From Octopus sinensis (lineage: Eukaryota), in assembly GCF_006345805.1 (NCBI RefSeq), contig NC_043019.1, positions 32,797,360 to 32,861,359 on the forward strand: a stretch of DNA of 64,000 nucleotides, written 5' to 3'. The notes below the pieces were generated by a model. The model was not told the origin of the DNA. It saw nothing but the letters and a program-made list of their open reading frames with translations, and ran no database searches. The translations under genes were made by a program, and so were the position numbers. Shown piece after piece: positions 9,854-51,500 of this stretch. Within the stretch, counting starts at the first letter, position 1. Every line of letters begins with the position of its first letter.

Positions 9854-9985
9854 CTCGGATTCATTGGAACCGGAGAGTCCCAGAAATGAGGATGACCCCG
9901 CGCTTGTAGCAGCAACCACATTCCGTGATCTTGTTTGTCGTGCCTCATTCGGAAGTATTAAATCTGTACTGAAGCCTGTCTTAGT
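9854..9985 (+). CDS. EFR3: EFR3 exon: [43 protein letters not shown](V)
   Basis: ctgcag| acceptor, |gtaagt donor; matches ENPAVLAENCFRELLGRATFGNMNNAVRPVF; 132 bp. Confidence 0.93.
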
Positions 9986-12983: not shown

Positions 12984-15900
12984 GTTCCTTTCTGTTTCCG
13001 TCTTTCAAATCCACTCAGGAGGCTTTGGTTGGCCTGAGGATGGTAGAATACATTTGCCCAAAGTGCCACTCAGTGTATACTGAACCTGGAACCATGTGGT
13101 TTAGAAAGAAACTCCATACCACACAGCCATGCCCGCATCTGATATAAGCTTCTCGTTTTAATCTGATCTAAATTCAAAACTTCCATCAATATTTTTTGTG
13201 AAGTTATGTCACAAACACCAGATTAATTATGACAAAATATTTTATTAAATTCCTCATTATTTTTTAAATAAATCAAAACTAAGTTGGTGTATTTTTACGT
13301 GCCACCGGCACGGAGGCCAGGCGAGGCTGGCACGGCCACAATCGGATGGTGTTTGTTACGTGCCACCAGCATGGGGGCCAGTCGTTGCAGTGCTGGCTAT
13401 GGCCACGTTCGGATGGTTCTCTTATGTGCCACCGGCACTGGTACCACACACTACAAATTCCATTGATGTGGATCGATTTTGATTTGATTCTTTGATTTTG
13501 ATTTTTTGATTCCATATGTACAAATAAATAAGGTTTTATACAGACGTGGGTTTCAGTGTTGTGGGCACTCTTAAACTTTCTCTATCCAAATGGCATTTCA
13601 ACCCAGTATTTTATCTTTTACTTGTTTCAGTCATTTGACTGCAGCCATGCTGGGGTACCACCTGGAAGGGTTTTAGTCAAACAAAATCAACAGGAATTCT
13701 CTCCTTGAATGTCTCATTTTTTTTGTTTTTTTGTTCTTGAAATGTAACCTTCCTGGAACAATCCCATCAAGGTTTTAGTTCATCATCATCATCGTTTAAC
13801 GTCTGTTTTCCATGCTAGCATGGGTTGGACTGTTCGACCTGGATCTGGGAAGCCAGAAGGCTGCACCAGGCCCCAGTCTGATCTGGCAGTGTTTCTATGG
13901 CTGGATGCCCTTCCTAACGCCAACCAGTCCGTGAGTGTAGTGGGTGCTTTTTACGTGCCACCGTCACGGGTGCCAGGCGAGGCTGGCAATGGCCACGATT
14001 GGATTGGTGCTTTTTATGTGCCACCAGCACGGAAGCCAGTCAAGGCAGCACTGACATTGGCCACGTTCAGATGGTGCTTTTTACGTGCCACCGGCACAGG
14101 GATCACAACTGCAATTTCCATTGATTTTTGATGTTGATGTACTTGACTTAATAGGTCTCCTCAAGCACAGGGTAGTTGATTATCATAATTGCCCAGTATT
14201 ATTTTTACTGACTCTGATCAAAGATTTGAAAAGCAAAGTGCTCAGTGCATGACACAGTAACATATGGCAAAAAACGTTTTCTCTGATGCTCTACTAATTA
14301 TGTTGCCACCTCCTCTGTTGTTCATTGAAACTTGATTCTATTGCTAGTTTAGGTTGTTAAAAATTTTCTAAGAACTGGACCAACAGTGCTACTATTACTA
14401 GAACTAATGCAATTGGTACAACACCAGGTCTGAGCACAATTTCTTCCAGATAAACACATCAGCACCAATTGCCACGTAGTGGTGGTGGAGATAAACAAAG
14501 GCATGCATCCACACAAACACACGCATTCATACATGCATTCATACACTATGGACTTCTTTTAGTTTATCTACTAAATCTACCCACAAGGCTTTGACTGGCC
14601 TGAAGCTATAATAGAGGATATTTGCCCATGATGCCATGCAGTGGGACTGAACCAGAAACTATGTGGTTGAGAAGCAAACTTCTTACCACACAGCCACTCC
14701 TGGAATTTCCATAGGTACAGCTTGTGAAGGCACATTGCTTAGTGGTTAGAGCATTCAGCTCATGATTGTAAGGTTGTGAGTTCAATTCCCGGCGGCACGT
14801 TGTGTCCTTGAGCAAGACACTTTATTTCACGTTGCTCCAGTCTACTCAGCTAGCAAAAATGAGCAGTACCTGTAATTCAAAGGGGCCAGCCTTGTCCCAT
14901 TGTGTTACACAGAATCTCCTTGAGAACTATGTCATGGGTTCACATGTCTGTGGAGTGCTCAACCACTTGCATGTTAATTTCACGAGCAGGCTGTTCTGTT
15001 GATCAGATTGACTGGAACCCTCGTCGTCATAACCAACAGAGTGCCAGTTATAGTTATTCTGCCTGTATATATTTATATATATATATATACAGAATGCGGC
15101 GAGCTGGCAGAAACGTTAGCACGCCGGGCGAAATGCTTAGCCGTATTTCATCTGCCGTTACGTTCTGAGTTCAAATTCCGCCAAGGTTGACTTTGCCTTT
15201 CATCCTTTCGGGGTCGATAAATTAAGTACCAGTTACGCACTGAGGTCGATGTAATCGACTTAATCCGTTTGTCTGTCCTTGTTTGTTCCCTCTGTGTTTA
15301 GCCCCTTGTGGGTAGTAAAGAAATAGGTATTTCGTCTGCTGCTACGTTCTGTTCCGCCGAGGTCGACTTTGCCTTTCATCCTTTCGGGGTCGATAAATTA
15401 AGTACCAGTTACGCACTGAGGTCGATGTAATCGACTTAATCCGTTTGTCTGTCCTTGTTTGTCCACTCCGTGTTTAGCCCCTTGTGGGCAGTAAAGAAAT
15501 AGGTATTTCGTCTGCTGCTACATTCTGAGTTCAAATTCCGCCGAGGTCGACTTTGCCTTTCATCCTTTCGGGGTCAATAAATTAAGTACCAGTTACGCAC
15601 TGGGGTCAATGTAATCAACTTAATCCGTTTGTCTGTCCTTGTTTGTTCCCTCTGTGTTTAGCTCCTTGTGGGTAGTAAAGAAATATATATTTATATACAT
15701 ATATATACATGTGTGTGTTTCTACTTAAAATAACTTTTATATTTGTATTTGCAGGCAAAATACAGTTACTTAGTTCTACAGATGTTGATGAGTCACCTAG
15801 ACACACATCAGAAGAGTGAACCAATGATCAAAGCTAACATAATAGATGTTCTTTTCCAAACAGTATTAATTGCCGCTGGTGGATCTGTCGGTAAGTTCTT

Positions 15901-18900
15901 CCCCCCCCCCCCAAAAAAAAATCTTCATTTCCGTTGCTATTTTGAATCATAGTAATATTTTATGTTGTACCTCATACCAGTCCATCAGAGAGGTGGCCTC
16001 TCTTTAGTTTCTTCATCAGCATCATCATCGTTTAACGTCTGCTTTCCATGCTAGCATGGGTTGGATGATTTTGACTGAGGGCTGGCGAATCAGATGGCTG
16101 CATCAGGCTCCAATCTTGATTTGGCAGAGTTTCTACAGCTGGATGCCCTTCCTAGCACCAACCACTCCGAGAGTGTAGTGGGCACTTTTTATGTGCCACC
16201 GGCACGGGGCCCAGTCCGGCGGTACTGGCAACGACCTCGCTCGAATCCTTTTGCACATGCCACCAGCACAGGTGCCAGTAAGGCGATGTTGGTAATGATC
16301 ACGCTCGAATGGTGCCCTTTTACGTGTCACTGGCACAGAAACCAGTTGGCTGCTCTGGCAACGATCACACTCGGACGGTGCTCTTGGCACCCTACTAGCA
16401 CAGGCACTGACTAAACTCTTATCAGATCATAATTCTGCAATCTTTCAAGAGGAAGGACACATGTGTAGTCCGAAATAAGACTGGAATATTTTCAGTAATG
16501 GTTTTGTTCAATTGGGTCTGGCTTGTGACTGCAAAAAAAAAAAAATGACAACACCAATAACATGCATTGTACCACATCGCATCTTGAAGGTGCATGGCTC
16601 AGTGGTTAGTGTCAGGCTCACAATCATGAGGAAGTGAGTTCAATTCCTGGACCGGGCTGTGTGTTGTGTTCTTGAGCAAGACACTCTATTTCATGTTGTT
16701 CCAGTTCACTCAGTTGTAGGAATGAGTTGTGACATTACTGGTGCCAAGCTGTATCGGCCCCTTTTGCCTTTCCCTTGGATAACATTGGTGGCATGGAGAG
16801 CGGAGGCTGGTGTACACCGGTGACTGCTGGTCTTTCATAAACAGCTTTGCCTGGGCTTGTGCCTCAGAGGGGAACTTTCTAGGTGCAGTCCCTCGGTCAT
16901 TCATGACTGATGGGGATCTTTACCCTTTACCCTTTCACCACATCACATCCTGTTATGGTGCCACTACATGGTAGCCAGATTTGCTGGAAACAGCAGCTAA
17001 AGTTTCAGAAATAGTGTCAGTAAATGGACATCTGTTTATGTCAACAATGAGTTTTTAAGTATTGGGTTGATCAAATGAACTCTTTGTTCATTGAATTAGC
17101 ATTTAAGTGGCCGAGTATTCCATGGATATGCATACCCTTAATGTACTCAGACATAATCAGCTTGACATTGTGTGTGATAAGGTCCTTTAAGTTCCAATTA
17201 ACAGTCTATTTGCTGGTCTTCTGCAAAGTTTTTGAATATCACAAGACTTGGGTCAGTTCAATGCCATGGTAAGAGACACTCACTCTAGATGTCATGCTAT
17301 GGGATTGAACCTGCAATCTCATGTTTGCAAAGGGAACTTCTTAACCATTCAGCCATGCTACAGTTATGAAAAGAAGGTCATACTTCATTTCCTTTTTTTT
17401 TTTGTCTTGTGTTGTTTGAAATATTAATTTTTTTTGTCTATTTGTTATGTGCAACAGAAGCAAGATTAGTTCAAAATAACAACCTGTGGATCATACTTAA
17501 TGCAGATACATCACTGAAAGTGAAATTGGCTGCAGTATTCGTCAAGATGTTATCTCAGAACAATTATCGCTCACATTTAATTTTTTGTTTCTGTGATGTA
17601 TCTGCACTAAGTATACTACACAGATTGCCAATTTATGTTTATTTGTTATTTTGTCTTTGAAACCTGTCCTTAATATGAAAATCTAAGAATATCTCTTTCT
17701 TTTATTGTAGGTCCATCAGTGCTGGAAGTGTTTGATACACTTCTACGACACCTTAGAGTATCTGTTGATTCCAAGTATGAGGAAGCAGAGAAAACTGAAA
17801 TGGAGAGAAAATTCCAAGAGGTCATAATCAACACAATTGGTCAGTGTTATTCATAACAGTCATGTGATGTGGCCGGTGTAGTAGTAGAAGTAGTAGTTGT
17901 AGTAGTAGTAACAACAGAAGTGGGTGTTGTTGTGTAAACTCCAAGGTCATATTTGTTTTTGAGCGTGACACAGATCGTTTTTATTGTTTTGTCAGTCGTG
18001 ATCTAGCAGACCTGTGGAATATGGGTTCTGCATCAATCAATTAGGCTATACCCACAAGTCTGTTGTTCCTTTTAACCGTTTAGCATTCAGATTACACTAT
18101 CAAATGTAATGCTTATTTATTCATACTGCTTTGAATTAATCATGCATTATATCATAGCACTGAGATTTTAAGTGTCGCTGGACTGGCTCCTGTGCAGGTG
18201 GCACGTAAAAAGCACCATTTGGGCGTGGCCGTTGCCAGTACCACCAAACTGGCCCTCGTGCCGGTGGCGTTAGGAAGGGCATCCAGCTGTAGAAACTCTG
18301 CCAGATCAGATTGGAATCTGGGTCGCCATACCTCAGTCAAATCGTCCAACCCATGCTAGCATGGAAAGCGGACGATAAATGATGATGATGAGGATGATGA
18401 TTGTTTGCTTTTAGAATGACATTGAAAGGTAGACATGTGAGGCAAGATCTGACCTGTTTAACCCTTTAGTATTTAAACCGGCCATATCCGGCCAAAATAG
18501 CTAGTCTGTTTTATGTTCAAATTGACCAGATCCAGGCTCTCACACTTACCCTACAATGTTATTCTACATTAAGTAATTACACCATCAAGATCTTGAAGAT
18601 ATGAGATAATGCATGATTAGTTCAAATCAATTGGAATCAATAGGCATTATGTTTGATTGAATAATCTGAACACTAAAGGGTTAAACATAAAATCCTGTAG
18701 GCTATTTTGGCCAGTCATGCCTGGTTTAAATGCGAAAGGGTTAGTTCTGTCCCGAAGCTTGAAGCCTATTCTCCCTGCTCAGACATGTCAATTCTATTGT
18801 AGTCAGTTTTGTTCGAGTCAATTCAACTGTGACAGATCCAAAGGCAAAATGAGTATTAAAACAGTCGATAAATATGAACTACATCAATGACATCTGCTGT

Positions 18901-21624: not shown

Positions 21625-24600
21625 ATTTGGCTCAAAAGCAAATAGCAAGGCCATGTAGGGGGACATGGAGTTAAGTACAGGGTGGTGTTCATGTAAAGAG
21701 TTCAGGCCACTTGAGGTCCAGGGAGGCTTTGAACAAAGCATCTTCACCATCTCGTCTGGCAGCTTGTTCCACGGATCCGCAACCCGGACGGAGAAAGCTC
21801 CTCTCCTTCGATTGAGATGAAATCGTCGCAAGTAGAGCTTTTCGGAATGACCCCGCAGCCGACGCTCTGGAGTAGGAGTGAAGAACAGCTCTTTTGAGAG
21901 GTTACACTTTCCGCTTATGATCCCTTATGTTATGTTCTCTCTGAAGGTGCATGGCACAGTGGTTAGAGCGTTAGGCTCACAATCATGAGGTTGTGAGTTC
22001 GATTCCCTGGCCGGGCTATGTGCTGTGTTCTTGAGCAAGACACTTTATTTCACATTGCTCCAGTTCACTCATCTGTAGAAATGAGTTGTGATGTCACTGG
22101 TGCCAAACTGTATCGGTGTTTCCCTTGGATAACATCGATGGCATAGAGAGCGGGAGGCTGGTATGCATGGGTGAGCTGGCAGAAACGTTAGCACGCCGGG
22201 CGAGATACGTAGCCGTATTTCGTCTGCCGTTACGTTCTGAGTACAAATTCCACCAAGGTCGACTTTGCCTTTCATCCTTTCGGGGTCGATAAATTAAGTA
22301 CCAGTTATGCACTGGAGTCGATGTAATTGACTTAATCTGTGTGTCTGTGCTTGTTTGTCCCCTCTGTGTTTAGCCCCTTTTGGGTAGTAAAGAAATAGGT
22401 ATGCATGGGTGACTGCTGGTCTTCCATAAACAATCTTGCCCAGACTTGTGCCTCGGAGGGGGACTTTCTAAGTGCAATCCCTTGGTCATTCATCACCGAA
22501 GGGGTTCTTTACCCTGTATAGTTTATGTTCTATCCTCTTTATTTGGTAGAAACTACTTCTTAGGTTATGTTTTTTTTTTCTGTTTTCAGGACACCGCCAA
22601 TAGATATTCAACTACAGAACATGTTATTGAAGACTCTGTTAAAAGTAAGTTAGTGATACATACTGCTTATCGTCATCATCATCATCATTCTCATCATCAC
22701 CACCACCACCACCACCACACTGATCACTATCATCATCATCCCCTCCATCACCTGTCATCTTCACCATCGTTGTTGCTGTTATATTGTTATTAGCAATGTG
22801 TCAACACAAAAACTACCACCACCACCACCACCACTATCGCCATTGTCATTCTTGTCATTACCATCCTGACTACACAACTCTCATTGCCATCCTCACCGTC
22901 ATCTCTACCACCACCACCACCACTACCGTCGCCATCATTGTCATCACCACCTCCATCATCGACCTTTGCCACCACCTCCATCATCGACCTTTGCCACCAC
23001 CTCCATCATCGACCTTTGCCACCACCTCCATCATCGACCTTTGCCACCACCTCCATCATCGACCTTTGCCACCACCTCCATCATCGACCTTTGCCACCAC
23101 CTCCATCATCGACCTTTGCCACCACCTCCATCATCGACCTTTGCCACCACCTCCATCATCGACCTTGCCACCACCTCCATCATCGACCTTGCCACCACCT
23201 CCATCATCGACCTTTGCCACCACCTCCATCATCGACCTTTGCCACCACCTCCATCATCGACCTTTGCCACCACCTCCATCATCGACCTTTGCCACCACCT
23301 CCATCATCGACCTTTGCCACCACCTCCATCATCGACCTTGCCACCACCTCCATCATCGACCTTTGCCACCACCTCCATCATCGACCTTTGCCACCACCTC
23401 CATCATCGACCTTTGCCACCACTCCATCATCGACCTTTGCCACCACCTCCATCATCGACCTTTGCCACCACCTCCATCATCGACCTTTGCCACCACCTCC
23501 ATCATCGACCTTTGCCACCACCTCCATCATCGACCTTTGCCACCACCTCCATCATCGACCTTTGCCACCACCTCCATCATCGACCTTTGCCACCACCTCC
23601 ATCATCGACCTTGCCACCACCTCCATCATCGACCTTGCCACCACCTCCATCATCGACCTTTGCCACCACCTCCATCATCGACCTTTGCCACCACCTCCAT
23701 CATCGACCTTTGCCACCACCTCCATCATCGACCTTTGCCACCACCTCCATCATCGACCTTTGCCACCACCTCCATCATCGACCTTTGCCACCACCTCCAT
23801 CATCGACCTTTGCCACCACCTCCATCATCGACCTTGCCACCACCTCCATCATCGACCTTGCCACCACCTCCATCATCGACCTTTGCCACCACCTCCATCA
23901 TCGACCTTTGCCACCACCTCCATCATCGACCTTTGCCACCACCTCCATCATCGACCTTTGCCACCACCTCCATCATCGACCTTTGCCACCACCTCCATCA
24001 TCGACCTTTGCCACCACCTCCATCATCGACCTTTGCCACCACCTCCATCATCGACCTTTGCCACCACCTCCATCATCGACCTTTGCCACCACCTCCATCA
24101 TCGACCTTTGCCACCACCTCCGCCAACATCATCACTGCCATCGACGCCACCACCACCACTACAACCACCATCATCATAACTCCCCTCCCCTTGCTTCATG
24201 TTCAACATCATTGTCGTATTGTTCTCATCATTGTCATTGGCATCACCACCACCACCACCACCATCATATTCTCATCATCAATTATCCTAACTACACAACC
24301 ATCATGTTGTCATCACAACCACTTTCTTATCATTATTGGATATCTCTTTATCTCATTGATTTCAGAAGGAAAGTGGGCAAAGTTGACCTACTCTCTTAAA
24401 ATCACAAACATTTTATGACTTTGTCTGAATATAATGAATCATTTTAATCATCATTATCAATCAATTGAATGTTAGAAAACAAAAGAAATTCATCATCATT
24501 ATCATCATCATCATCATCATTGTTTAACGTCCGCTTTCCATGCTAGCATGGGTTGGACGATTTGACAGAGGACTGGCAAACCAGATGGCTGCACCAGGCT

Positions 24601-25877: not shown

Positions 25878-28800
25878 TATTAAGGTGGTGAGCTAGCAGA
25901 ATCGTTAGCATGGTGGGTGAAATGCTTAGTGGTATTTCGTCTGCTGCTACATTCTGAGTTCAAATTCTGCCAAGGTCAACTGTGCCTTTCATCCTTTCAG
26001 GGTCGATAAACACTGGGAGCAATATGTAATCAACTAGTCACCTCCCCACAAAATTTCAGGCTTTTTGCCTATAGTAGAAAGGATTATTATTAAGGTGGTG
26101 AGCTCGCAGTATTGTTAGCACTGTCTCTCCCTTTTGTTTAAATCAGGGGTTCTCAACCATTTTTTTTTTTTAATTGTGAACCCCTTTGGTTCCTATTTTA
26201 CTTGGGTGGATCCCTATAGTCATTCAATGTTTAACAAATCGTATTATCATCATCGTTTAACGTCCGTTTTCCGTGCTAGCACGGGTTGGACGGTTCGACT
26301 GGGGTCTGAGAAGCCAGGAGGCTGCACCAGGCTCCAGTCTGATCTGGCAGTGTTTCTACAGCTGGATGCTCTTCCTAACGCCAACCACTCCGTGAGTGTA
26401 GTGGGTGCTTTTTATGTGCCACCAGCACAGATGCCAGGGGAGGCTGGCAGCGGCCACGATCGGTTGGTGCTTTTTACGTGCCGCCGGCACAGAAGCCAGT
26501 CAAGGCGGCGCTGGCACCGGCCACGTTCGGATGGTGCTTTTTACGTGCCACCGGCACAGGTATCACAACTACAGTTTCCATTTAATATTTATTTTGATGT
26601 CGATGTACTTGACTCAATAGGTCTACTCAAGCATGGCAGGTCACCATACGATCCAAGGTAAGCACAGCAGGTCGTACTGCAATCCAAGGTACTTCGGATG
26701 GGCTGGGGCTATGCGAAACTGGTGCAGGAAGCAGCCATGAACTCACATTATTTGTCGGGTCTTTGCAGTTATTTTTATAATCAAATATATTTTTATGAAG
26801 TGTATAAAAATTGCTTAATTATTTTGTGTGTTGTGCAGGTATAATCAATTTATTGCACACAAACTTTACTGGTCTAAGCACAATTTATTCATGACCCCTG
26901 AAAAATTACTGTGGACCCCCCCCCCCCCCAGTTTACTATATTGCATCTGTGGACCGCAGAAATTTTATATGGACCCCGGTTCAGAACCCCTGGTTTACTA
27001 TATTGTATCTGTGGACCGCAGAAATTTTATATGGACCCCGGTTGGAGAACCCCTGGTTTACTATATAGTATCTGTGGACCGCAGAAATTTTATATGGACC
27101 CCGGTTGGAGAACCCCTGGTTTACTATATTGTATCTGTGGACTGCAGAAATTTTATATGGACTCCGGTTGGAGAACCCCTGGTTTACTATATTGTATCTG
27201 TGGACCGCAGAAATTTTATATGGACTCCGGTTGGAGAACTCCTGGTTTACTATATTGTATCTGTGGACTGCAGAAATTTTATATGGACCCCGGTTGGAGA
27301 ACCCCTGGTTTACTATATTGTATCTGTGGACCGCAGAAATTTTATATGGACTCCGGTTGGAGAACCCCTGGTTTACTATATTGTATCTGTGGACCGCAGA
27401 AATTTTATATGGACCCCGGTTGGAGAACCCCTGGTTTACTATATTGTATTTGTGGACCGCAGAAATTTTATATGGACCCCGGTTGGAGAACCCCTGGTTT
27501 ACTATATTGTATCTGTGGACCGCAGAAATTTTATATGGACTCCGGTTGGAGAACCCCTGGTTTACTATATTGTATCTGTGGACCGCAGAAATTTTATATG
27601 GACCCCGGTTGGAGAACCCCTGGTTTAAATCAACAGCAATTGCAATAAAGGATTATTTCTGCCCATTTCAGGTGGCGACCAAATACCAAACAGTTGTCAT
27701 GATGAATGCTTTCCCACCAGAATTCCTCATTCCCTTGTTGAAGATGTCGCAGGTGGAGGAGCCTGCTTTGCGTCTCATTGTGCAAGACATCCTCCACACC
27801 CTCATTGATCGCCATGGAAACACTCAGAAGCTGAAGAACGTCTGGTCAGTATCCTTCTTTCTTGTCTATCGACCTTTATTCATTCCTTCCTTCAACACTA
27901 CTGCCTCTTCTGCTGGCACTACTATCACTACAACAGCTGCAGCTACTGCTACTACTACCACTACTACCACTACTGTTGCTGCTGCTGCTACTGCGAATAT
28001 AATCCCATACACCGCCACTATGATTAATATTATTACCAACGCTGCTGTCATCAACTCCATAGAGTTTATTGGGTGCGTTTAACATGGCACCAGCACAAGT
28101 GCCCCTTGTGTGGTACCGGCATGGGCGCCCCTTGCTGTCATCACTATTACTACAACTGCTGCCAAACACTGCAAATCTCCCGGTTTGGTTTGAGTACAGG
28201 CAGTTTCATATCGCCTTTAGAAATAGCAGTTAAATCTCCCTCAGATCATGGTGACATGGTGACCCCCTTCGGTCAGACACTGACCATGGGTTTGCATCTA
28301 GAGAGTTACCCTCCGAGGCACAAGTCTGGGCAAGGTTGTTTTTTATGGAAGACCAGCAGTCGCCCATGCATACCGGCCCCCCCTCTCCACGCCACCAGTG
28401 TTGTCCAAGGTAAAGGCAAAGGGGCCGATACAGCTTGGCACCTGTGATGTCACAACTCATTTCTACAGCTGAGTGAACTGGAGCAACGTGAAATAAAGTG
28501 TCTTGCTCAAGAACACAACACGCAGCCCGGTCCAGGATTCGAGCTCACAACCTCACGATCGTAAGCTCGACGCTCTAACCACTGTTGTTCATGTTTTCTC
28601 AACTCTTTCACATCGACCATCACGATCCCACACAGCATTTGGGGAGTTGAGCAGGGAGGGCAACATCCTATGGCTGTACACCTCTCGTCTATGAAGGTTT
28701 ATGTGGCTGTATGGTCAACCAGTGTATATCAGTATTAGGGGGGACCCTAGGAAAGCATCACTAATGAGTTCATGCTAGCCTTTGCAGCATCATCCAACAA

Positions 28801-39563: not shown

Positions 39564-42500
39564 GTGTGTGTATGTATATATGTGTGTATGCATATATATG
39601 TGTATGTATATATGTGTATGTATATATGTGTATGTATATATGTGTATGTATATATGTATGTATATATATATGTATGTATATATATATGTATGTGTATATA
39701 TATATGTATGTATGTGTATGTATATATATATATGTGTATGTATGTATGTGTATGTATATATATATATATATGTGTATGTATGTATGTGTATGTATATATA
39801 TATATGTGTATGTATATATATATATATGTGTATGTATGTATGTGTATGTATATATATGTGTATGTGTATGTATATATATATGTGTATGTGTATGTATATA
39901 TATGTATGTGTATGTATATATATGTATGTGTGTATGTATGTATGTGTATATATATATATATGTATGTGTATATGTATGTATGTGTATGTATATATATATG
40001 TATGTGTGTATGTATGTATGTGTATGTATATATATGTATGTGTGTATGTGTGTATGTATATATATGTATGTATGTATGTGTATGTATGTATGTGTATGTA
40101 TATATATGTATGTGTGTATGTATGTATGTGTATGTATGTATGTGTATGTATATATATGTATGTGTGTATGTATGTATGTGTGTATGTATGTATGTATATA
40201 TATATGTATGTGTATATATATATATGTATGTGTATGTATATATGTGTATGTATATATATATATGTATGTATATATGTGTATGTATATATGTGTATGTATA
40301 TATATATATGTATGTATATATGTGTATGTATATATATATATGTATGTATATATATATATGTATGTATATATGTGTATGTATATATATATATGTATGTATA
40401 TATGTGTATGTATATATATATATGTATGTATGTATGTGTATGTATATATATATATGTATGTATGTATGTATGTGTATGTATATATATATATGTATGTATG
40501 TGTGTATGTATATATATATATATGTATGTATATATGTGTGTATGTCGTCATCATCATCATCATCATCATCATTTAGCATATAATATATATATATATTTAT
40601 TTGTGTGTGTGTGTTCTCTTTCCTAGGTGCTTGAATCCCGATCACAGGAAGCCTCATTCCTGCTGCCAGAGTTTGCCTTCAATCGTAAAAACAAGCCTAG
40701 CAGGTTAGTATAATGACACCTTTTCATTCCTTCTTTATTTATTTCTATTGTGATTATTCTTTTTAAATTTGCTATTTGAGTTACAGCAACATTATCAGCA
40801 GGTGCACAATAGACCAGTTTCTGGTTCACTACATTCCTGGTAATAAAAAATAGGGTGTCTCTCTATCTCTGTACAAGAAGTTGTTTGCAGTGTACCAATG
40901 TTTGGCATTTTCATTGATAATAGCTCATGCACCCATACAATGTTGTGCTGTGTCAGTTGTGGACACATATTGAGAAAGAAATATACAGTTGACTAAATTT
41001 GTATACTTTCTTAGTGAATGACTGCTATATATTTTATCAACCCTGCTTAATCTCTGGGAAATCTGAACAAAGCTTGTTATAATGATAGCACAGGTGCCAT
41101 TGATGTGTCTACAACCTGTGACTACAACCTGACCTGTATGGTGCTTTTTATGTGCCACTGGCAAGGGTGCCAGTCAAACAGCACTGGCATCAGCCCTGAC
41201 TACAACCTCACTTGTATGGTGCTTTTTATGTGCCACTGGCAAGGCTGCCAGTCAAACAGCCCTGGCATCAGCCATGACTACAACCTCACTTGTATGGTGC
41301 TTTTTATGTGCCACTGGCAAGTGTGCCAGTCAAATAGCACTGGCATCAGCCGTGACTACAACCTCACTTGTATGGTGCTTTTTATGTGCCACTGGCAAGT
41401 GTGCCAACCAAACAGCACTGGCGTCAGCCGTGACTACAACCTCACCTGTATGGTGCTTTTTATGTGCCACTGGCAAGGCTGCCAGTCAAACAGCACTGGC
41501 ATCAGCCATGACTACAACCTCACTTGTATGGTGCTTTTTATGTGCCACTGGCAAGTGTGCCAGTCAAACAGCACTGGCATCAGCCGTGACTACAACCTCA
41601 CTTGTATGGTGCTTTTTATGTGCCACTGGCAAGTGTGCCAACCAAACAGCACTGGCGTCAGCCGTGACTACAACCTCACTTGTATGGTGGTTTTTATGTG
41701 CCACTGGCAAGGGTGCCATTCAAACAGCACTGGCATCAGCCGTGACTACAACCTGACCTGTATGGTGCTTTTTATGTGCCACTGGCAAGGCTGTCAGTCA
41801 AACAGCCCTGGCATCAGCCATGACTACAACCTCACTTGTATGGTGCTTTTTATGTGCCACTGGCAAGTGTGCCAGTCAAATAGCACTGGCATCAGCCGTG
41901 ACTACAACCTCACTTGTATGGTGCTTTTTATGTGCCACTGGCAAGTGTGCCAACCAAACAGCACTGGCGTCAGCCGTGACTACAACCTCACCTGTATGGT
42001 GCTTTTTATGTGCCACTGGCAAGGCTGCCAGTCAAACAGCACTGGCATCAGCCATGACTACAACCTCACTTGTATGGTGCTTTTTATGTGCCACTGGCAA
42101 GTGTGCCAGTCAAACAGCACTGGCATCAGCCGTGACTACAACCTCACTTGTATGGTGCTTTTTATGTGCCACTGGCAAGTGTGCCAACCAAACAGCACTG
42201 GCGTCAGCCGTGACTACAACCTCACTTGTATGGTGGTTTTTATGTGCCACTGGCAAGGGTGCCATTCAAACAGCACTAGCATCAGCCGTGACTACAACCT
42301 CACCTGTATGGTGCTTTTTATGTGCCACTGGCAAGGCTGCCAGTCAAACAGCCCTGGCATCAGCCATGACTACAACCTCACTTGTATGGTGCTTTTTATG
42401 TGCCACTGGCAAGTGTGCCAGTCAAACAGCACTGGCGTCAGCCGTGACTACAACCTCACTTGTATGGTGCTTTTTATGTGCCACTGGCAAGGGTGCCAGT

Positions 42501-45500
42501 CAAACAGCACTGGCATCAGCCCTGACTACAACCTCACTTGTATGGTGCTTTTTATGTGCCACTGGCAAGGGTGCCAGTCAAACAGCACTGGCATCAGCCA
42601 TGACTACAACCTCACTTGTATGGTGCTTTTTATGTGCCACTGGCAAGTGTGCCAGTCAAACAGCCCTGGCATCAGCCATGACTACAACCTCACTTGTATG
42701 GTGCTTTTTATGTGCCACTGGCAAGTGTGCCAGTCAAACAGCACTGGCGTCAGCCGTGACTACAACCTCACTTGTATGGTGCTTTTTATGTGCCACTGGC
42801 AAGTGTGCCAACCAAACAGCACTGGCGTCAGCCGTGACTACAACCTCACTTGTATGGTGCTTTTTATGTGCCACTGGCAAGGCTGCCAGTCAAACAGCCC
42901 TGGCATCAGCCATGACTACAACCTCACTTGTATGGTGCTTTTTATGTGCCACTGGCAAGTGTGCCAGTCAAACAGCACTGGCGTCAGCCGTGACTACAAC
43001 CTCACTTGTATGGTGCTTTTTATGTGCCACTGGCAAGGGTGCCAGTCAAACAGCACTGGCATCAGCCCTGACTACAACCTCACTTGTATGGTGCTTTTTA
43101 TGTGCCACTGGCAAGGGTGCCAGTCAAACAGCACTGGCGTCAGGCGTGACTACAACCTCACTTGTATGGTGCTTTTTATGTGCCACTGGCAAGGGTCCCA
43201 GTCAAACAGCACTGGCGTCAGCCGTGACTACAACCTCACCTGTATGGTGCTTTTTATGTGCCATTGGCAAGGGTGCCAGTCAAACAGCCCTGGCATCAGC
43301 CGTGACTACAACCTGACCTGTATGGTGCTTTTTATGTGCCACTGGCAAGGGTGCCAGTCAAACAGCCCTGGCGCAGCCGTGACTACAACCTCACCTGTAT
43401 GGTGCTTTTTATGTGCCACTGGCAAGGGTGCCAGCCATACAGCACTGGCGTCAGCCGTGACTACAACCTCACTTGTATGGTGCTTTTTATGTGCCACTGG
43501 CAAGGGTGCCAATCAAACAGCACTGGCGTCAGCCGTGACTACAACCTCACTTGTATGGTGCATTTTATGTGCCACTAGCAAGGGTGCCAGTCAAACAGAA
43601 CTGGTATCAGCCGTGACTACAACCTCACCTGTATGGTGCTTTTTATGTGCCACTGGCAAGGGTGCCAGTCAAACAGCACTGGCGTCAGCCGTGACTACAA
43701 CCTCACTTGTATGGTGCTTTTTATGTGCCACTGGCAAGGGTGCCAATCAAACAGCACTGGCGTCAGCCGTGACTACAACCTCACTTGTATGGTGCTTTTT
43801 ATGTACCACTGGCAAGGGTGCCAATCAAACAGCACTGGCATCAGCCGTGACTACAACCTCACCTGTATGGTGCTTTTTATGTGCCACTGGCAAGGGTGCC
43901 AGTCAAACAGCCCTGGCATCAGCCGTGACTACAACCTCACTTGTATGGTGGTTTTTATGTGCCACTGGCAAGGGTGCCAATCAAACAGCACTGGCATCAG
44001 CCATGACTACAACCTCACTTGTATGGTGGTTTTTATGTGCCACTGACAAGGGTGCCAATCAAACAACACTGGCGTCAGCCGTGACTACAACCTCACCTGT
44101 CTGGTGCTTTTTATGTGCCACTGGCAAGGGTGCAAATCAAACAGCACTGGCGTCAGCCGTGACTACAACCTCACTTGTATGGTGCTTTTTATGTGCCACT
44201 GGCAAGGGTGCCAATCAAACAGCACTGGCGTCAGCCGTGACTACAACCTCACTTGTATGGTGCTTTTTATGTGCCACTGGCAAGGGTGCCAGTCAAACAG
44301 CACTGGTGTCAGCCGTGACTACAACCTCACCTGTATGGTGCTTTTTATGTGCCACTGGCAAGGGTGCCAGCCAAACAGCACTGGCGTCAGCCGTGACTAC
44401 AACCTCACTTCTATGGAGGTTTTTATGTGCCACTGGCAAGGGTGCCAATCAAACAGCACTGGTGTCAGCCGTGACTACAACCTCACTTGTATGGTGCTTT
44501 TTATTTGCCAGTCAAACAGCACTGGCATCAGCCGTGACTACAACCTCACCTGTATGGTGCTTTTTATGTGCCACTGGCAAGGGTGCCAGTCAAACAGCCC
44601 TGGCATCAGCCGTGACTACAACCTCACTTGTATGGTGGTTTTTATGTGCCACTGGCAAGGGTGCCAATCAAGCAGCACTGGCGTCAGCCGTGACTACAAC
44701 CTCACTTGTATGGTGCTTTTTATGTGCCACTGGCAAGGGTGCCAGTCAAACAGCACTGGCGTCAGCTGTGACTACAACCTCACCTGTATGGTGCTTTTTA
44801 TGTGCCACTGGCAAGGGTGCCAGTCAAACAGCACTGGCGTCAGCAACCTCACTTGTATGGTGCTTTTTATGTGGCACTGGCAAGGGTGCCAATCAAACGG
44901 CACTGGCGTCAGCCGTGACTACAACCTCACTTGTATGGTGGTTTTTATGTGCCACTGGCAAGGGTGCCAATCAAACAGCACTGGCGTCAGCCGTGACTAC
45001 AACCTCACTTGTATGGTGCTTTTTATGTGCCACTGGCAAGGGTGCCAGTCAAACAGCCCTGGCATCAGCCGTGACTACAACCTCACTTGTATGGTGGTTT
45101 TTATGTGCCACTGGCAAGGGTGCCAATGAAACAGCACTGGCGTCAGCCGTGACTACAACCTCACTTGTATGGTGCTTTTTATGTGCCACTGGCAAGGGTG
45201 CCAGTCAAACAGCCCTGGCATCAGCCGTGACTACAACCTCACTTGTATGGTGGTTTTTATGTGCCACTGGCAAGGGTGCCAATCAAACAGCACTGGCGTC
45301 AGCCGTGACTACAACCTCACTTGTATGGTGCTTTTTATGTGCCACTGGCAAGGGTGCCAGTCAAACAGCACTGGCGTCAGCCGTGACTACACCCTCACCT
45401 GTATGGTGCTTTTTATGTGCCACTGGCAAGGGTGCCAATCAAACAGCACTGGCGTCAGCCGTGACTACAACCTCACCTGTATGGTGCTTTTTATGTGCCA

Positions 45501-48500
45501 CTGGCAAGGGTGCCAGTCAAACAGCACTGGCGTCAGCCGTGACTACACCCTCACCTGTATGGTGCTTTTTATGTGCCACTGGCAAGGGTGCCAATCAAAC
45601 AGCACTGGCGTCAGCCGTGACTACAACCTCACCTGTATGGTGCTTTTTATGTGCCACTGGCAAGGGTGCCAGTCAAACAGCACTGGCGTCAGCCGTGACT
45701 ACAACCTCACTTGTATGGTGCTTTTTATGTGCCATTGGCAAGGGTGCCAATCAAACAGCACTGGCGTCAGCCGTGACTACAACCTCACCTGTATGGTGCT
45801 TTTTATGTGCCACTGGCAAGGGTGCCAGTCAAACAGCACTGGCGTCAGCCGTGACTACAACCTCACTTGTATGGTGCTTTTTATGTGCCATTGGCAAGGG
45901 TGCCAATCAAACAGCACTGGCGTCAGCCGTGACTACAACCTCACTTGTATGGTGCTTTTTTTGTGCCACTGGCAAGGGTGCAAATCAAACAGCACTGGCG
46001 TCAGCCCTGACTACAACCTCACTTGTATGGTGGTTTTTATGTGCCACTGGCAAGGGTGCCAATCAAACAGCACTGGCGTCAGCCGTGACTACAACCTCAC
46101 TTGTATGGTGCTTTTTATGTGCCACTGGCAAGGGTGCCAGTGAAACAGAACTGGTATCAGCCGTGACTACAACCTCACCTGTATGGTGCTTTTTATGTAC
46201 CTCTGGCAAGGGTGCCAATCAAACAGCACTGGCGTCAGCCGTGACTACAACCTCACTTGTATGGTGGTTTTCATGTGCCACTGGCAAGGGTGCCAACCAA
46301 ACAGCACTGGCGTCAGCCGTGACTACAACCTCACTTGTATGGTGCTTTTCATGTACCACTGGCAAGGGTGCCAATCAAACAGCACTGGCATCAGCCGTGA
46401 CTACTACTTCACCTGTATGGTGCTTTTTATGTGCCACTGGCAAGGGTGCCAGTCAAACAGCCCTGGCATCAGCCGTGACTACAACCTCACTTGTATGGTG
46501 GTTTTTATGTGCCACTGGCAAGGGTGCCAATGAAACAGCACTGGCGTCAGCCGTGACTACAACCTCACTTGTATGGTGCTTTTTATGTGCCACTGGCAAG
46601 GGTGCCAGTCAAACAGCACTGGCGTCAGCCGTGACTACAACCTCACCTGTATGGTGGTTTTTATGTGCCACTGGCAAGGGTGCCAGTCAAACAGCACTGG
46701 CGTCAGCCGTGACTACAACCTCACATGTATGGTGGTTTTTATGTGCCACTGGCAAGGGTGCCAATCAAACAGCACTGGCGTCAGCCGTGACTACAACCTC
46801 ACTTGTATGGTGCTTTTTATGTACCACTGGCAAGGGTGCCAGTCAAACAGCACTGGCATCAGCCGTGACTACAACCTCACTTGTATGGTGGTTTTTATGT
46901 GCCACTGGCAAGGGTGCCAATCAAACAGCACTGGCGTCAGCCGTGACTACAACCTCACTTTTATGGTGCTTTTTATGTGCCACTGGCAAGGGTGCCAGTC
47001 AAACAGCACTGGTGTCAGCCGTGACTACAACCTCACCTGTATGGTGCTTTTTATGTGCCACTGGCAAGGGTGCCAGCCAAACAGCACTGGCGTCAGCCGT
47101 GACTACAACCTCACTTGTATGGTGGTTTTTATGTGCCACTGGCAAGGGTGCAAATCAAACAGCACTGGCGTCAGCCCTGACTACAACCTCACTTGTATGG
47201 TGCTTTTTATGTGCCACTGGCAAGGGTGCCAGTCAAACAGCACTGGCGTCAGCCGTAACTACAACCTCACCTGTATGGTGCTTTTTATGTGCCACTGGCA
47301 AGGGTGCCAGTCAAACAGCCCTGGCATCAGCCGTGACTACAACCTCACTTGTATGGTGGTTTTTATGTGCCACTGGCAAGGGTGCCAATCAAACAGCACT
47401 GGCGTTAGCCGTGACTACAACCTCACTTGTATGGTGCTTTTTATGTGCCACTGGCAAGGGTGCCAGTCAAACAGCACTGGCGTCAGCCGTGACTACAACC
47501 TCCCTTGTATGGTGCTTTTTATGTGCCACTGGCAAGGGTGCCATTCAAACAGCACTGGCATCAGCCGTGACTACAACCTCACTTGTATGGTGCTTTCTAT
47601 GTGCCACTGGTGCTTTTCATGTGCCAGTTACATAACACTGGCATTGGCCAGACTATGATCTCACTTACGGCATTGGACACAGCTACGATTTCACTTGGCT
47701 TGGCAGGTCTTTTCAAACACAGCACAAATGATAGTATTTTTTTTCCTAGTAATAAATCTTTCAAAATTGATGCTACTTATCTACTCTAGAGAATTCTGTA
47801 TGTCTTATCATATTCCTGTCTCTTTTTCTCAACAGTTACCCGATTGATTTCACGCTCCGAGAGAACTGGTTGTTCTCCCAGAAAGCCATAGCCGAGAGCT
47901 TACAGAACAATGGTCACGATACTGCTGGTTTGGATGTTCCTTTCAGTCTGAGACCTCTTGGTATAGGTTCGTAGACGCTATTTTTTTCCTTCTCTCTCAT
48001 TTTCCACCTATTTGCTCTGCACTTTCTCATCCAACTTTTATTTCTCCTTCCTTTATGCATATACATATATCATCGCCATCATCATTTAACACTCGCTTTC
48101 CATACTGGCACGGGATTAGATGGTTTGATTGGAACTGTCAAACTGGAGAGCTGCACCAGGTTTGGTGGCTGCCCCCTCGTTATCGAGTATGGCCATTGCA
48201 TGAAGCTTAATCAATGTTGTTATCGTGCAATGCCTGTGCAAGAAGATTTTTTTTTAAAGTGAGGAAAGGCTGTGCTCTGAGTCAATCTCACTCACTAAGC
48301 AACAGCAGCCATAATCCAAAAAGAAGAACAAGTCAACATCATCGGTAACCACTGAGCCGCAGATTTATATCGGAGTTATCCCAGTTACCTGAGTTACCTT
48401 CTCCTAGAATGATGCCCTAACAAAGGCTAGGAGTCCTTCACTCCCAATGGTTTAACTGCGCGATCGGGTATTCAGTCCGATTATTTCTATGTCTCCACGC

Positions 48501-51500
48501 ATGATACAGCCTTAAGACATTTATTGGATGGCCGTTGACTCTCAAGAGTTCCTCCGCATTTTGACAGGTTTTGTTTTTCATCCCGCAGGGTGACCAATAA
48601 ACACCCTCCTCACCAAGCAAGCTTGGTGGGGTTGCCGGTTTAGTCGCCGATGACCCGACCATGCAACAGGTTGTACTGGGTTACATGTTACCAGTAGCAC
48701 TCGAAAGTGACCTGACTAGGTTTACATGCATGCATGCATACATACATACACATGAAGCGGGAGGGTGTACTGAAAAGTTCCTGGCTTTAAGAGTGTTGCG
48801 AAAGGCCTGTTTGGAAACCCAACCTTCCGAGTTCCTTCATGAGGCTCTGCAAAACTGAAGGCTTGCTGCATTAAGTATGTGAATCCGAGAGAGGAATCAT
48901 CATCGTTTAACGTCCGCTTTCCATGCTAGGATGAGTTGGACGGTTCGACTGGGGTCTGGGAAGCCAGGAGGCTGCACCAGACTCCAGTCTGATCTGGCAG
49001 TGTTTCTACAGCTGGTTGTCCTTCCTAACGCTAATATGTTGAGTAAAATCATAATTAACTGATCCCCTTGTATTTCATTTTACCCAAAGCCAGGAACTTT
49101 TCAGCACCCACTTCTAATTACACACACACATACACACGCATACACACACACACACACACACATATATATATCTATATATACACAGATACACACATCCATG
49201 CAAATATACATTTCTGTATACATACATTTATATTTCAAACAATTACAAAGAACACAGAGACTGGTGTGTCATCAGATTTTTCTTTTGATTTTGTAATTGG
49301 TCATACTTCATAATTATTTGATTATATTATACCTTAATTAGTATGACTAACTGTAAAATTAAAAGAAATACTAGACAATGTACTAGTCTCTATATTATTT
49401 GTAATGTTTTGAAATTTACACTTCTGGTAATATTCCTAATCCAGAGAAGCGAACCCAGAGTTACCCATCAGAAGAATTATTGCAGGATTTCTCAGACTAA
49501 GCAATCATCATCATCATCATCATCAACAACCGTTTTCCATGCTAGCATGGGTTGGACGTTTCGACCGGGGTCTGGGAAGCCAGGAGGCTGCACCAGGCTC
49601 CAGTCTGATCTGGCAGTGTTTCTACAGCTGGATGCCCTTCCTAACACCAACCACACCGTGAGTGTAATGGGTGCTTTTTACGTGCCACCGTCACAGGTGC
49701 CAGGGGAGGCTGGCAACAGCCACGATCAGTTGGTGCTTTTTACGTGCCCCAACCGATTGTAGCTGTTGCCAGCCTCCTCGGCCTCCTGTGCTGGTGGCAC
49801 ATAAAAAGCACCCACTACACTCACGGTGTGGTTGGTGTTAGGAAGGGCATCCAGCTATAGAAACACTGCCAGATCAGACTGGAGCCTGGTGCAGCAGTCT
49901 GATCTGGCAGTGTTTCTACAGCTGGATGCCCTTATCATTGATATTTATTGCTACTGGATGTGGTTAACTGTAACCTGGAATATATGTACCACAGAACTAT
50001 CACAGTACCTGCCTAGATAATTTATCCCTATATACTTACCTTACACACACACACACACACACATGTATACACATACTTACAAATATACATATGTATATAA
50101 CGCAAATATTGTGGCTGGTGCTAGCGGCCATGCTGGGGCACCACCGTTCGGTGTTGCTACATGATTTTACTTCACGAATGCTTTTTAGCAATTGACATTT
50201 GGTGCATGAGAGAGTTTGATGCAGCTGCCCTCATCTGCACCTCCTGCCATGAAGTTGGTTCATCTGGGACACCTGACAGGAAGAGGTCCAGCTTTATTTG
50301 AAAGACATCTGCATCCACCCTATGCAGGTCTCTCAGGTCCTTCGGGAGGATATTGAAGAGCTGTGGACCTCTGAAGCCCAGGCTATCGCAGTATCTTGTC
50401 CTACATCTTGATTCATAATAAATTCATAATGTTTATGAATTTGAAATTTTTTTTCAACTCCATTTCACTGTAGTCGTAGATACTTCCTTAGGTGTTGCAT
50501 TCTTGTTTCTGCACCTTTCCATGATCGCATGGGTTGGAGCAAATTTGTTGAAGTTAATTTTCAAGAGAAATGTGTTTGCCTGCCATCCTTTCAAAGTCAG
50601 TGAAATAAATACCAGTTATGCATTAGTACTTGCAAGCATCCTCCAGGTCCTCGCCCACGAGAGATATTGGCTGCCAGATGTCAGTTGGAACCAATGACCT
50701 CATCACCTTTGACTTGGCGGTATTGATTCGGAGACCAACCGCGGCTGCTGCCGCTTGAACATCCTCCCTTCCATCTGTCCTTCTGCAATGGCGCTTGCGG
50801 TGGTTTGGCCATGTATGTAGGTGTCCGGTGGGTGAACTGAGCTGTGATGTCCTTCTCCCCACTCCACTTCCCAACTGGCGGAAACGCGCGGGCGGGCAGC
50901 TGAAGACCTGGGTTACGACAATCAAGGAGGACCTCTCCAAGCTCACGGGTCCACAGGTGGTCAGCCTGCGCCGATGGAACCGTGACTGGCTCGCTATCTC
51001 CAGTGAACTGGCGCAGGAGCTGCCATGGTTCGAATGCCTCGAGGGTGGTAGAAGAAGCCGACTCAGAACGCCCAGGGTGAATATCGCCACAAGCACAAGT
51101 AGCAAGTACTTGCAAACAGATGAGGGCTGGTGACAGCAAAGGTAACTTGGCAGAATTTGAACTCAGAACATAAAGCTGAATGAAATGCCGCTAAGCATTT
51201 TGCCCAGCATGCTAACAATTCTGCCAGCTCACCATTCTTTCATTCTCTTCATATGAAAAAAAAAAGATTGCTCTGACATGTTTCATGGCTGGTTGGCCAC
51301 TCTTCAGAGGACAAGCTTCTCCCACCCATCTGCTTACAGAGAGAACTATGTAGCAATCACTATTTAAATCAGTCAAAAACTAGTTCCTGACTATAATGCT
51401 TAGATTGATGTACATATCATGCAATTGTGGTATTCATTTTTCAGGTGACACCAGTGATATGACACACAGCACAAGCGATATCCATTCGGTGAACCTGGAT

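What the first reader, a model, noticed from the sequence alone, without database searches (positions are those of the whole stretch)
41108..47610. 6.5-kb 78-bp satellite grown from an RTE 3'UTR subrepeat inside an intron
The unit core gtatggtgctttttatgtgccactggcaagg is the CpG-decayed form (acg to atg, ccg to ctg) of the dispersed subrepeat ggatggtgctttttacgtgccaccggcacgg. The array is bounded by degenerate remains of that element (about 41085 and 47611-47720). So one methylation-aged unit was amplified about 83 times. Each unit can form two mutually exclusive hairpins (actggca/tgccagt, or gccagt/actggc with the next motif), giving a long repetitive structured RNA in every EFR3 pre-mRNA. The unit is a multiple of 3 and stop-free in two + frames (Cys/His-rich [26 protein letters not shown]), but I see no evidence of translation.
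Basis: partly seen in the sequence, partly recalled or inferred. Interest (0 to 1): 0.72.

Follow-up and report, generated by a model that had tools for sequence, protein, structure and literature searches.

The report
LINE-seeded minisatellite in octopus EFR3 intron
A real 6.5-kb array of about 83 copies of a 78-base piece from a jumping gene's tail sits in an intron that is spliced out of the octopus EFR3 message; it is one of dozens of such arrays in this genome and is likely a neutral product of DNA slippage and unequal crossing-over, not a functional RNA or protein.

Summary
Observation confirmed: 78 bp x 83.6 at 41118-47610, 96.6% to the majority unit, in the 7,132-nt intron between EFR3 exons 40627-40703 and 47836-47966, which an RNA-type contig joins. 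The unit comes from the 3' UTR of a very high-copy LINE (endonuclease + reverse transcriptase, (ATG)n tail; likely RTE clade), lies antisense to it and is CpG-decayed, as are dispersed copies of the same old subfamily. Its junction occurs only at this locus, and it is multi-copy in runs with two other species labels. The functional reading fails. The RNA folds no better than shuffles (z -0.2), the two hairpins are intact in 42 and 29 of 80 units, and array RNA is at intron-background level. Main addition: this LINE tail has seeded many independent arrays (20 of 20 fetched loci; 8 of about 4.8 kb or more). The scan earlier noted other LINE-end tandem repeats elsewhere in this genome (not checked here). 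Verdict: an ordinary transposon-derived minisatellite, new member of a known kind.

The parts
41118..47610 (+). Tandem array, 78 bp x 83.6, antisense to the parent LINE
   Evidence: orientation
41089..41134 (-). Left degenerate remnant of the LINE 3' UTR (more 3' module); the LINE's terminal core and (ATG)n tail are absent here
47611..47726 (-). Right degenerate remnant; on the LINE strand it reads as the last ~10 codons and stop of an ORF2 C-terminus (or a module copy of it) followed by the start of the 3' UTR
   Evidence: one search compared
41081..41088 (+). Left copy of an 8-bp direct repeat, possible target-site duplication (weak)
   Evidence: one mismatch at 41084 in runs X4 and X2
47727..47734 (+). 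Right copy of the 8-bp direct repeat
41213..42304 (+). Two copies of a 7-unit (546-bp) block, 3 differences: recent higher-order duplication
43319..43395 (+). 77-bp unit (1-nt deletion) that shifts the stop-free path from one open frame to the other; a 1-nt deletion at this unit position is also in a contig of run X6
41051..47635 (+). 2,194-codon stop-to-stop open frame over the whole array; judged incidental
40627..40703 (+). EFR3 exon upstream of the array (residues 644-668 of P0001)
47836..47966 (+). EFR3 exon downstream of the array (residues about 669-713 of P0001)
40704..47835 (+). Host intron, 7,132 nt, GT-AG; about 640 nt without the array; other EFR3 introns in the window are 753-7,191 nt

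Best explanation
The array is a single-locus minisatellite made of a CpG-decayed piece of a LINE 3' UTR, lying antisense in an EFR3 intron that is spliced out; it likely arose by one slippage event at a 6-bp microhomology, likely grew by repeated block duplication (unequal crossing-over or slippage), and is likely neutral. Steps: (1) shown: an old-subfamily LINE 3' fragment without its tail lies at 41089-47726. (2) Shown: its ancestral CpGs are decayed; inferred: by methylation, as expected in a gene body. (3) Inferred: misalignment between unit positions 70-75 of the long module and the similar letters just before the conserved core made the first 78-bp duplicate. (4) Shown: blocks of units were duplicated and variants cluster by region; inferred: by unequal exchange. 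(5) Shown: one RNA-type contig joins the flanking exons. The same LINE tail has seeded many other arrays, so this is a recurrent property of its internally repetitive 3' UTR.
For: 14 of 20 dispersed look-alike loci carry a LINE ORF2 C-terminus next to the modules. Long elements with the same ORF end have RVT_1 and Exo_endo_phos above Pfam cut-offs, 62-68-bp subrepeats and (ATG)n tails; 56,493 first-look candidates. 15 ungapped dispersed modules match unit positions 1-75; best single copy 65 of 78. Five of five CpG-like columns of that module are TG or CA in the unit. Junction motif: 64 of 64 genome hits inside this array. 546-bp block duplicated with 3 differences. Exon-exon join in run X8. 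Folding z -0.20; 97 of 200 shuffled-unit tandems fold as well. 20 of 20 fetched sister loci hold arrays of about 10-130 units; 11 of 23 sister arrays are fully stop-free on the same strand.
Against: The whole-array open frame is nominally unusual taken alone: 134 of 20,000 unit permutations and 708 of 20,000 substitution re-placements reproduce it, and only 3 of 83 slots for the 77-bp unit allow it. The array is multi-copy in runs with three species labels, which could mean retention, although flanks differ by only about 1%. In the same-sample run X6 the unit contigs are only about 10 times deeper than the flank contig at face value, so the assembled length is not confirmed there. The founding duplication and the exchange mechanism are inferred, not observed. 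Neutrality was not tested directly; RNA evidence is contigs from one run whose RNA nature is a guess.
Confidence: 0.85

Rival explanations
1. The array acts as a structured or double-stranded RNA element in EFR3 pre-mRNA (alternative hairpins, or pairing with antisense LINE ends in neighbouring introns) that tunes splicing or A-to-I editing.
For: Both hairpins form in the majority unit (-9.4 and -7.7 kcal/mol). Antisense LINE ends at about 18181-18218 and 49794-49812 can pair with units (-79 and -78 kcal/mol against about -58, sd 5, for shuffled units). Array sequence is present in run X8.
Against: No excess folding stability. Stems intact in 42 and 29 of 80 units; a variant in 32 of 80 breaks the shared arm. 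Antisense matches are short (19-38 nt), and the copy at 49746-49895 has a much better partner 9 nt away. X8 shows no A>G difference in the unit (contigs are a weak test). The intron is no longer than other EFR3 introns.
Confidence: 0.07
2. The array is translated as a long repeat protein (Cys/His-rich for 28 units, Ala/Thr-rich after the frameshift), a young de novo gene.
For: A 2,194-codon stop-free path spans the array; nominal p 0.007-0.035; a 1-nt deletion like the frameshift is in same-sample contigs; left units show 7 synonymous to 11 non-synonymous changes in the open frame.
Against: 11 of 23 sister arrays are also fully open on this strand, up to 2,333 of 2,333 codons, including 67-bp periods where all three frames are crossed. 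Right units show 11 synonymous to 27 non-synonymous changes, the random expectation. A frameshift changes the peptide midway. Array depth in X8 is 18.5 for all ~83 copies together, against 23.7 for the mRNA and 2 for unique intron. Pfam hits are repeat-summed, with 0 stretches passing alone.
Confidence: 0.03
3. The array is real but its assembled length is wrong (over-expanded or collapsed), or is one allele of a highly variable locus.
For: Face-value depth ratio of about 10 in same-sample run X6. No laid contig spans the array.
Against: 51 distinct units with ordered block structure are hard to obtain from assembly error. In X2, six alternative contigs over the same unit segment sum to depth 614 against 6.4-8.9 for the flanks (about 70-95-fold); in X4 two alternative contigs sum to about 2,400 against 52-53 (about 45-fold; those 38-nt pieces were not shown to be array-specific). 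The X6 flank contig runs into repeat sequence, which may inflate its depth. The tool warns that contig depth is no copy number.
Confidence: 0.1

Closest known systems
SINE-derived satellites (sSats) of squamate reptiles (PMC10702118; abstract and Discussion read)
   Same: Tandem arrays grown from part of an abundant retroposon, with a longer parental remnant at one or both ends, arising independently at many loci and homogenised within long loci.
   Different: The parent here is the 3' UTR of an autonomous LINE, not a SINE; units are locus-specific (this junction is at one locus only), whereas long sSat loci share variants between loci; no clear subtelomeric preference was tested.
Satellites from retrotransposon 3' UTRs: pea PisTR-A from Ogre, Drosophila HeT-A 3' region, cetacean L1-like satellite, chicken CR1-derived HinfI (as reviewed in PMC9659126; passages read)
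   Same: Tandem subrepeats or sequence of a retroelement 3' UTR amplified into long arrays.
   Different: Those became chromosome-scale satellite families; this is a 6.5-kb single-locus intronic array.
Octopus RTE LINEs (RTE-2_OV and the O. bimaculoides RTE, PMC9115989, passages read; 13 recently active RTE families in O. vulgaris, PMC13282606, passages read)
   Same: Endonuclease + reverse transcriptase LINE with a microsatellite 3' end, abundant in octopus.
   Different: RTE-2_OV is described with a C2H2 finger and a 3' UTR made mostly of microsatellite; the parent here has a 500-750-nt UTR with subrepeats and a weak PHD-like hit. Identity with a published family was not tested. The passages read do not mention UTR-derived arrays.

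Membership tests
Transposon-derived minisatellite | Head-to-tail array of 10-100-bp units far above chance | tested here: met
Transposon-derived minisatellite | Unit aligns to part of a dispersed element; parental remnants flank the array | tested here: met
Transposon-derived minisatellite | Length variation between alleles (VNTR) | tested here: inconclusive
   contig depths differ between runs but are not copy numbers
Satellite DNA family (multi-locus, 100 kb-Mb arrays) | Same unit in long arrays at several loci | tested here: not met
   junction motif 64 of 64 hits in this array; best other hits 86-89% over one unit among 40 scored of 662 candidates
RTE-clade LINE (parent element) | APE-type endonuclease followed by reverse transcriptase | tested here: met
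   PF03372 and PF00078 above cut-off in L083, L084, L086; the copies examined are broken into two frames
RTE-clade LINE (parent element) | Short tandem (microsatellite) 3' tail | tested here: met
   (ATG)n tails after the UTR in nearly all copies printed; PMC9115989 passage calls microsatellites a common RTE feature
RTE-clade LINE (parent element) | Reverse-transcriptase phylogeny places it in the RTE clade | not tested
   No reference RT set was held; the RTE label rests on architecture and a recalled resemblance of the C-terminal motif
Structured intronic RNA element | Folding more stable than shuffles and stems kept across units | tested here: not met
Protein-coding tandem repeat | Open frame beyond family background with synonymous bias | tested here: not met
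Protein-coding tandem repeat | Translation (ribosome footprints, peptides) | not testable with these tools
   only contigs were available
EFR3 family (host gene) | Exons encode a PF21072/PF21052 protein | tested here: met
   P0001, 842 aa, named EFR3 homolog A of Octopus sinensis by its source; 15 exon matches over residues 256-842 in the window

The most novel reading that the evidence does not exclude
This LINE's 3' UTR seeds kilobase arrays whose antisense strand is often stop-free for thousands of codons; where such an array lies sense in a transcribed intron, as here in EFR3, it is a ready substrate for de novo repeat proteins or for editing-prone double-stranded RNA, and this one has been recruited (translated or regulating EFR3 processing).
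Probability: 0.05. Interest if true: 0.65.

Novelty: new member of a known kind. Interest (0 to 1): 0.24.

Why it matters
Taken alone the array is ordinary. The wider result is modestly useful: one abundant octopus LINE has an internally repetitive 3' UTR that has seeded at least dozens of independent 0.6-8.6 kb arrays with locus-specific units. That is a natural replicate series for how minisatellites are born and homogenised, a source of length markers, and a trap for gene finders because many arrays give false ORFs of 1,700-2,300 codons. Five searches of the held library on octopus LINEs, satellites and minisatellites (listings only for most) returned no paper whose title or abstract start describes these arrays; subscription journals, Repbase and supplements were not seen.

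Tried and rejected
Pfam on single EFR3 exons and a genome search with PF21072 found nothing because the exons are short; identity came. Pfam hits of the translated array are repeat-summing artefacts. A SINE origin was considered and dropped, since the modules adjoin a LINE ORF2 end. A special RNA fold was rejected. One compensatory-looking pair in hairpin 1 occurs in two duplicated units only: one event, no evidence. An empty pre-insertion allele was looked for in runs X2, X4, X6, X8, X9: X2, X4 and X6 carry the insertion edge, X9 does not cover it, so the 8-bp direct repeat stays untested. No genome-wide count of arrays was obtained: one search scored 40 of 6,051 candidates (39 loci, one the query itself), of which 20 were fetched; these were chosen for likeness to an array, so they give no base rate per LINE copy. 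L057-L059 were added for the 23-array comparison. A search of earlier findings by sequence gave only an unrelated hit. No complex or structure prediction was run.

Full report
Observation. TRF finds a 78-bp array of 83.6 copies at 41118-47610. Splitting gave 83 units, 80 of them 78 bp long, 96.6% identical to the majority unit, with 51 distinct sequences; the other three are 77, 63 and 69 bp. The conserved core has 108 matches in the window, 25 outside the array, and none in 100 shuffles. The left third has its own variants and a 7-unit block duplicated with 3 differences in 546 bp. The window lies 18 kb from the end of contig C23 of G000.

Host gene. An exon at 9855-9983 is identical to P0001, 842 aa, named EFR3 homolog A of Octopus sinensis by its source, with PF21072 and PF21052. 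P0001 maps to 15 exons on the + strand. The array lies in the GT-AG intron 40704-47835 (7,132 nt; other introns 753-7,191 nt). A 2,879-nt contig of run X8 (RNA by guess, another sample) covers exon 40627-40703 and continues directly into exon 47836-47966, so the intron is spliced out.

Parent element. Of 20 dispersed look-alike loci fetched, 14 carry a LINE ORF2 C-terminus next to the repeat modules, on the strand opposite to the array's reading. That C-terminus has 56,493 first-look candidates in the genome. Longer copies carry RVT_1 and Exo_endo_phos above Pfam cut-offs, with a weak PHD-like hit below cut-off, then a 500-750-nt 3' UTR with 62-68-bp subrepeats, a terminal core and an (ATG)n tail. 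This fits the RTE clade; I did not test it by phylogeny. The array is therefore antisense to the LINE and sense to EFR3.

Origin of the unit. The unit is not the common subrepeat. Its first 75 bases match, without gaps, a longer module of an older subfamily that ends in a copy of the ORF2 stop region (15 of 138 dispersed hits met my filter; best 65 of 78). The last bases match the letters that precede the core in such copies, and positions 70-75 resemble that upstream context. One slippage at this 6-bp microhomology would make the 78-bp unit (inferred). Five of five CpG-like columns of the module are TG or CA in the unit, but dispersed copies keep CG in only 2-5 of 15 at each, so decay is general to the subfamily; most units also carry two CpGs that the family majority lacks (49 and 66 of 80). 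In octopus, methylation is enriched in introns and exons and low on transposons overall (PMC9476566, passages), which fits decay inside a gene body (inferred). Degenerate LINE remains flank the array; the right one reads as the last codons and stop of ORF2; the LINE's tail is missing. An 8-bp direct repeat brackets the whole insert (41081-41088, 47727-47734), with one mismatch in two other runs: a possible target-site duplication, untested.

Uniqueness and context. The unit junction has 64 exact hits in the genome, all in this array. Arrays from the same LINE tail, however, are common. A search with a 67-bp array found at L058 gave 39 loci among 40 scored of 6,051 candidates. All 20 fetched hold arrays of 65-70-bp units (one reported as a 132-bp dimer), 0.6-8.6 kb; 8 are about 4.8 kb or longer, 6 run off the fetched stretch, and 11 have the LINE tail or ORF2 end adjacent. 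Their majority units differ from locus to locus, which suggests independent births.

Other individuals. Contigs of runs X2 and X4, with two other species labels and about 1% difference in the flanks, carry the insertion edge and deep unit contigs: about 70-95 and at least about 45 times flank depth by my sums of alternative contigs. In the same-sample run X6 the ratio is only about 10 at face value, but its flank contig runs into repeats; X6 does show a 1-nt deletion matching the 77-bp unit. Contig depth is no copy number, so the length remains to be confirmed by long reads.

Function tests. Four units fold at -106.4 kcal/mol against -105.3 for shuffles (z -0.20); single units have z -0.75 to -1.2; 97 of 200 tandems of shuffled units fold as well. 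The two hairpins are real in the majority unit and exclude each other, but are intact in only 42 and 29 of 80 units, with pairing probabilities of 0-0.61 and 0-0.23 in four units examined. In X8 the collapsed unit contig has depth 18.5 for all copies together, against 23.7 for the mRNA and 2 for unique intron: no excess over pre-mRNA or DNA background.

The long open frame. Alone it looks unusual (134 of 20,000 permutations; 708 of 20,000 re-placed substitutions). But 11 of 23 sister arrays are also fully open on the same strand, up to 2,333 codons, and substitutions in the right-hand units show no synonymous bias (11 to 27; the left units 7 to 11). It is best read as a by-product of a stop-poor unit.

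Comparison. It works like the SINE-derived satellites of squamates (PMC10702118, abstract and Discussion) and like satellites from retroelement 3' UTRs (PMC9659126, passages). Octopus RTE LINEs are known (PMC9115989, PMC13282606, passages; PMC5786205 passages for RTE-related SINE parts); I found no description of these arrays, and saw no supplements. Earlier unreviewed notes of this scan describe other LINE-end tandem repeats and the PHD-like insert in this genome; I did not test the former.

Verdict. Real, correctly traced to a LINE 3' UTR, likely neutral; new member of a known kind; interest 0.24.

Noticed in passing
window 49587-49895 (next EFR3 intron): Two LINE 3' ends lie head to head as a 150-nt inverted repeat, 91% complementary, 9 nt apart, with a second 39-nt inverted pair at 49843-49933: a far better double-stranded RNA and editing candidate in EFR3 pre-mRNA than the array.
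   Followed up: partly
G000 C12:49.21 Mb, C3:10.42-10.43 Mb, C1:43.08 Mb, C28:16.05 Mb, C10:0.25 Mb, C9:1.59 Mb, C23:5.25 Mb, C22:19.46 Mb (L091-L093, L103, L104, L108-L110): Sister arrays of about 4.8 to 8.6 kb or more grown from the same LINE 3' UTR, with 66-70-bp locus-specific units; L093, L103 and L110 are stop-free for 1,700-2,300 codons.
   Followed up: partly
window 22945-24121 and 26931-27627: Two more young intronic minisatellites in EFR3: 25 bp x 47 (99% matches) and 63 bp x 11 (97%), each with long open frames.
   Followed up: no
   Followed up: partly
L044, L046, L049, L050, L052, L055, L062: The older subfamily's 3' UTR is built from 121- and 158-bp modules that look like duplications of the ORF2 C-terminus and stop region joined to the subrepeat.
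   Followed up: partly
window 11012-11435 and 15143-15692: Tandem triplications (148 and 176 bp) of other dispersed octopus repeats in EFR3 introns.
   Followed up: no
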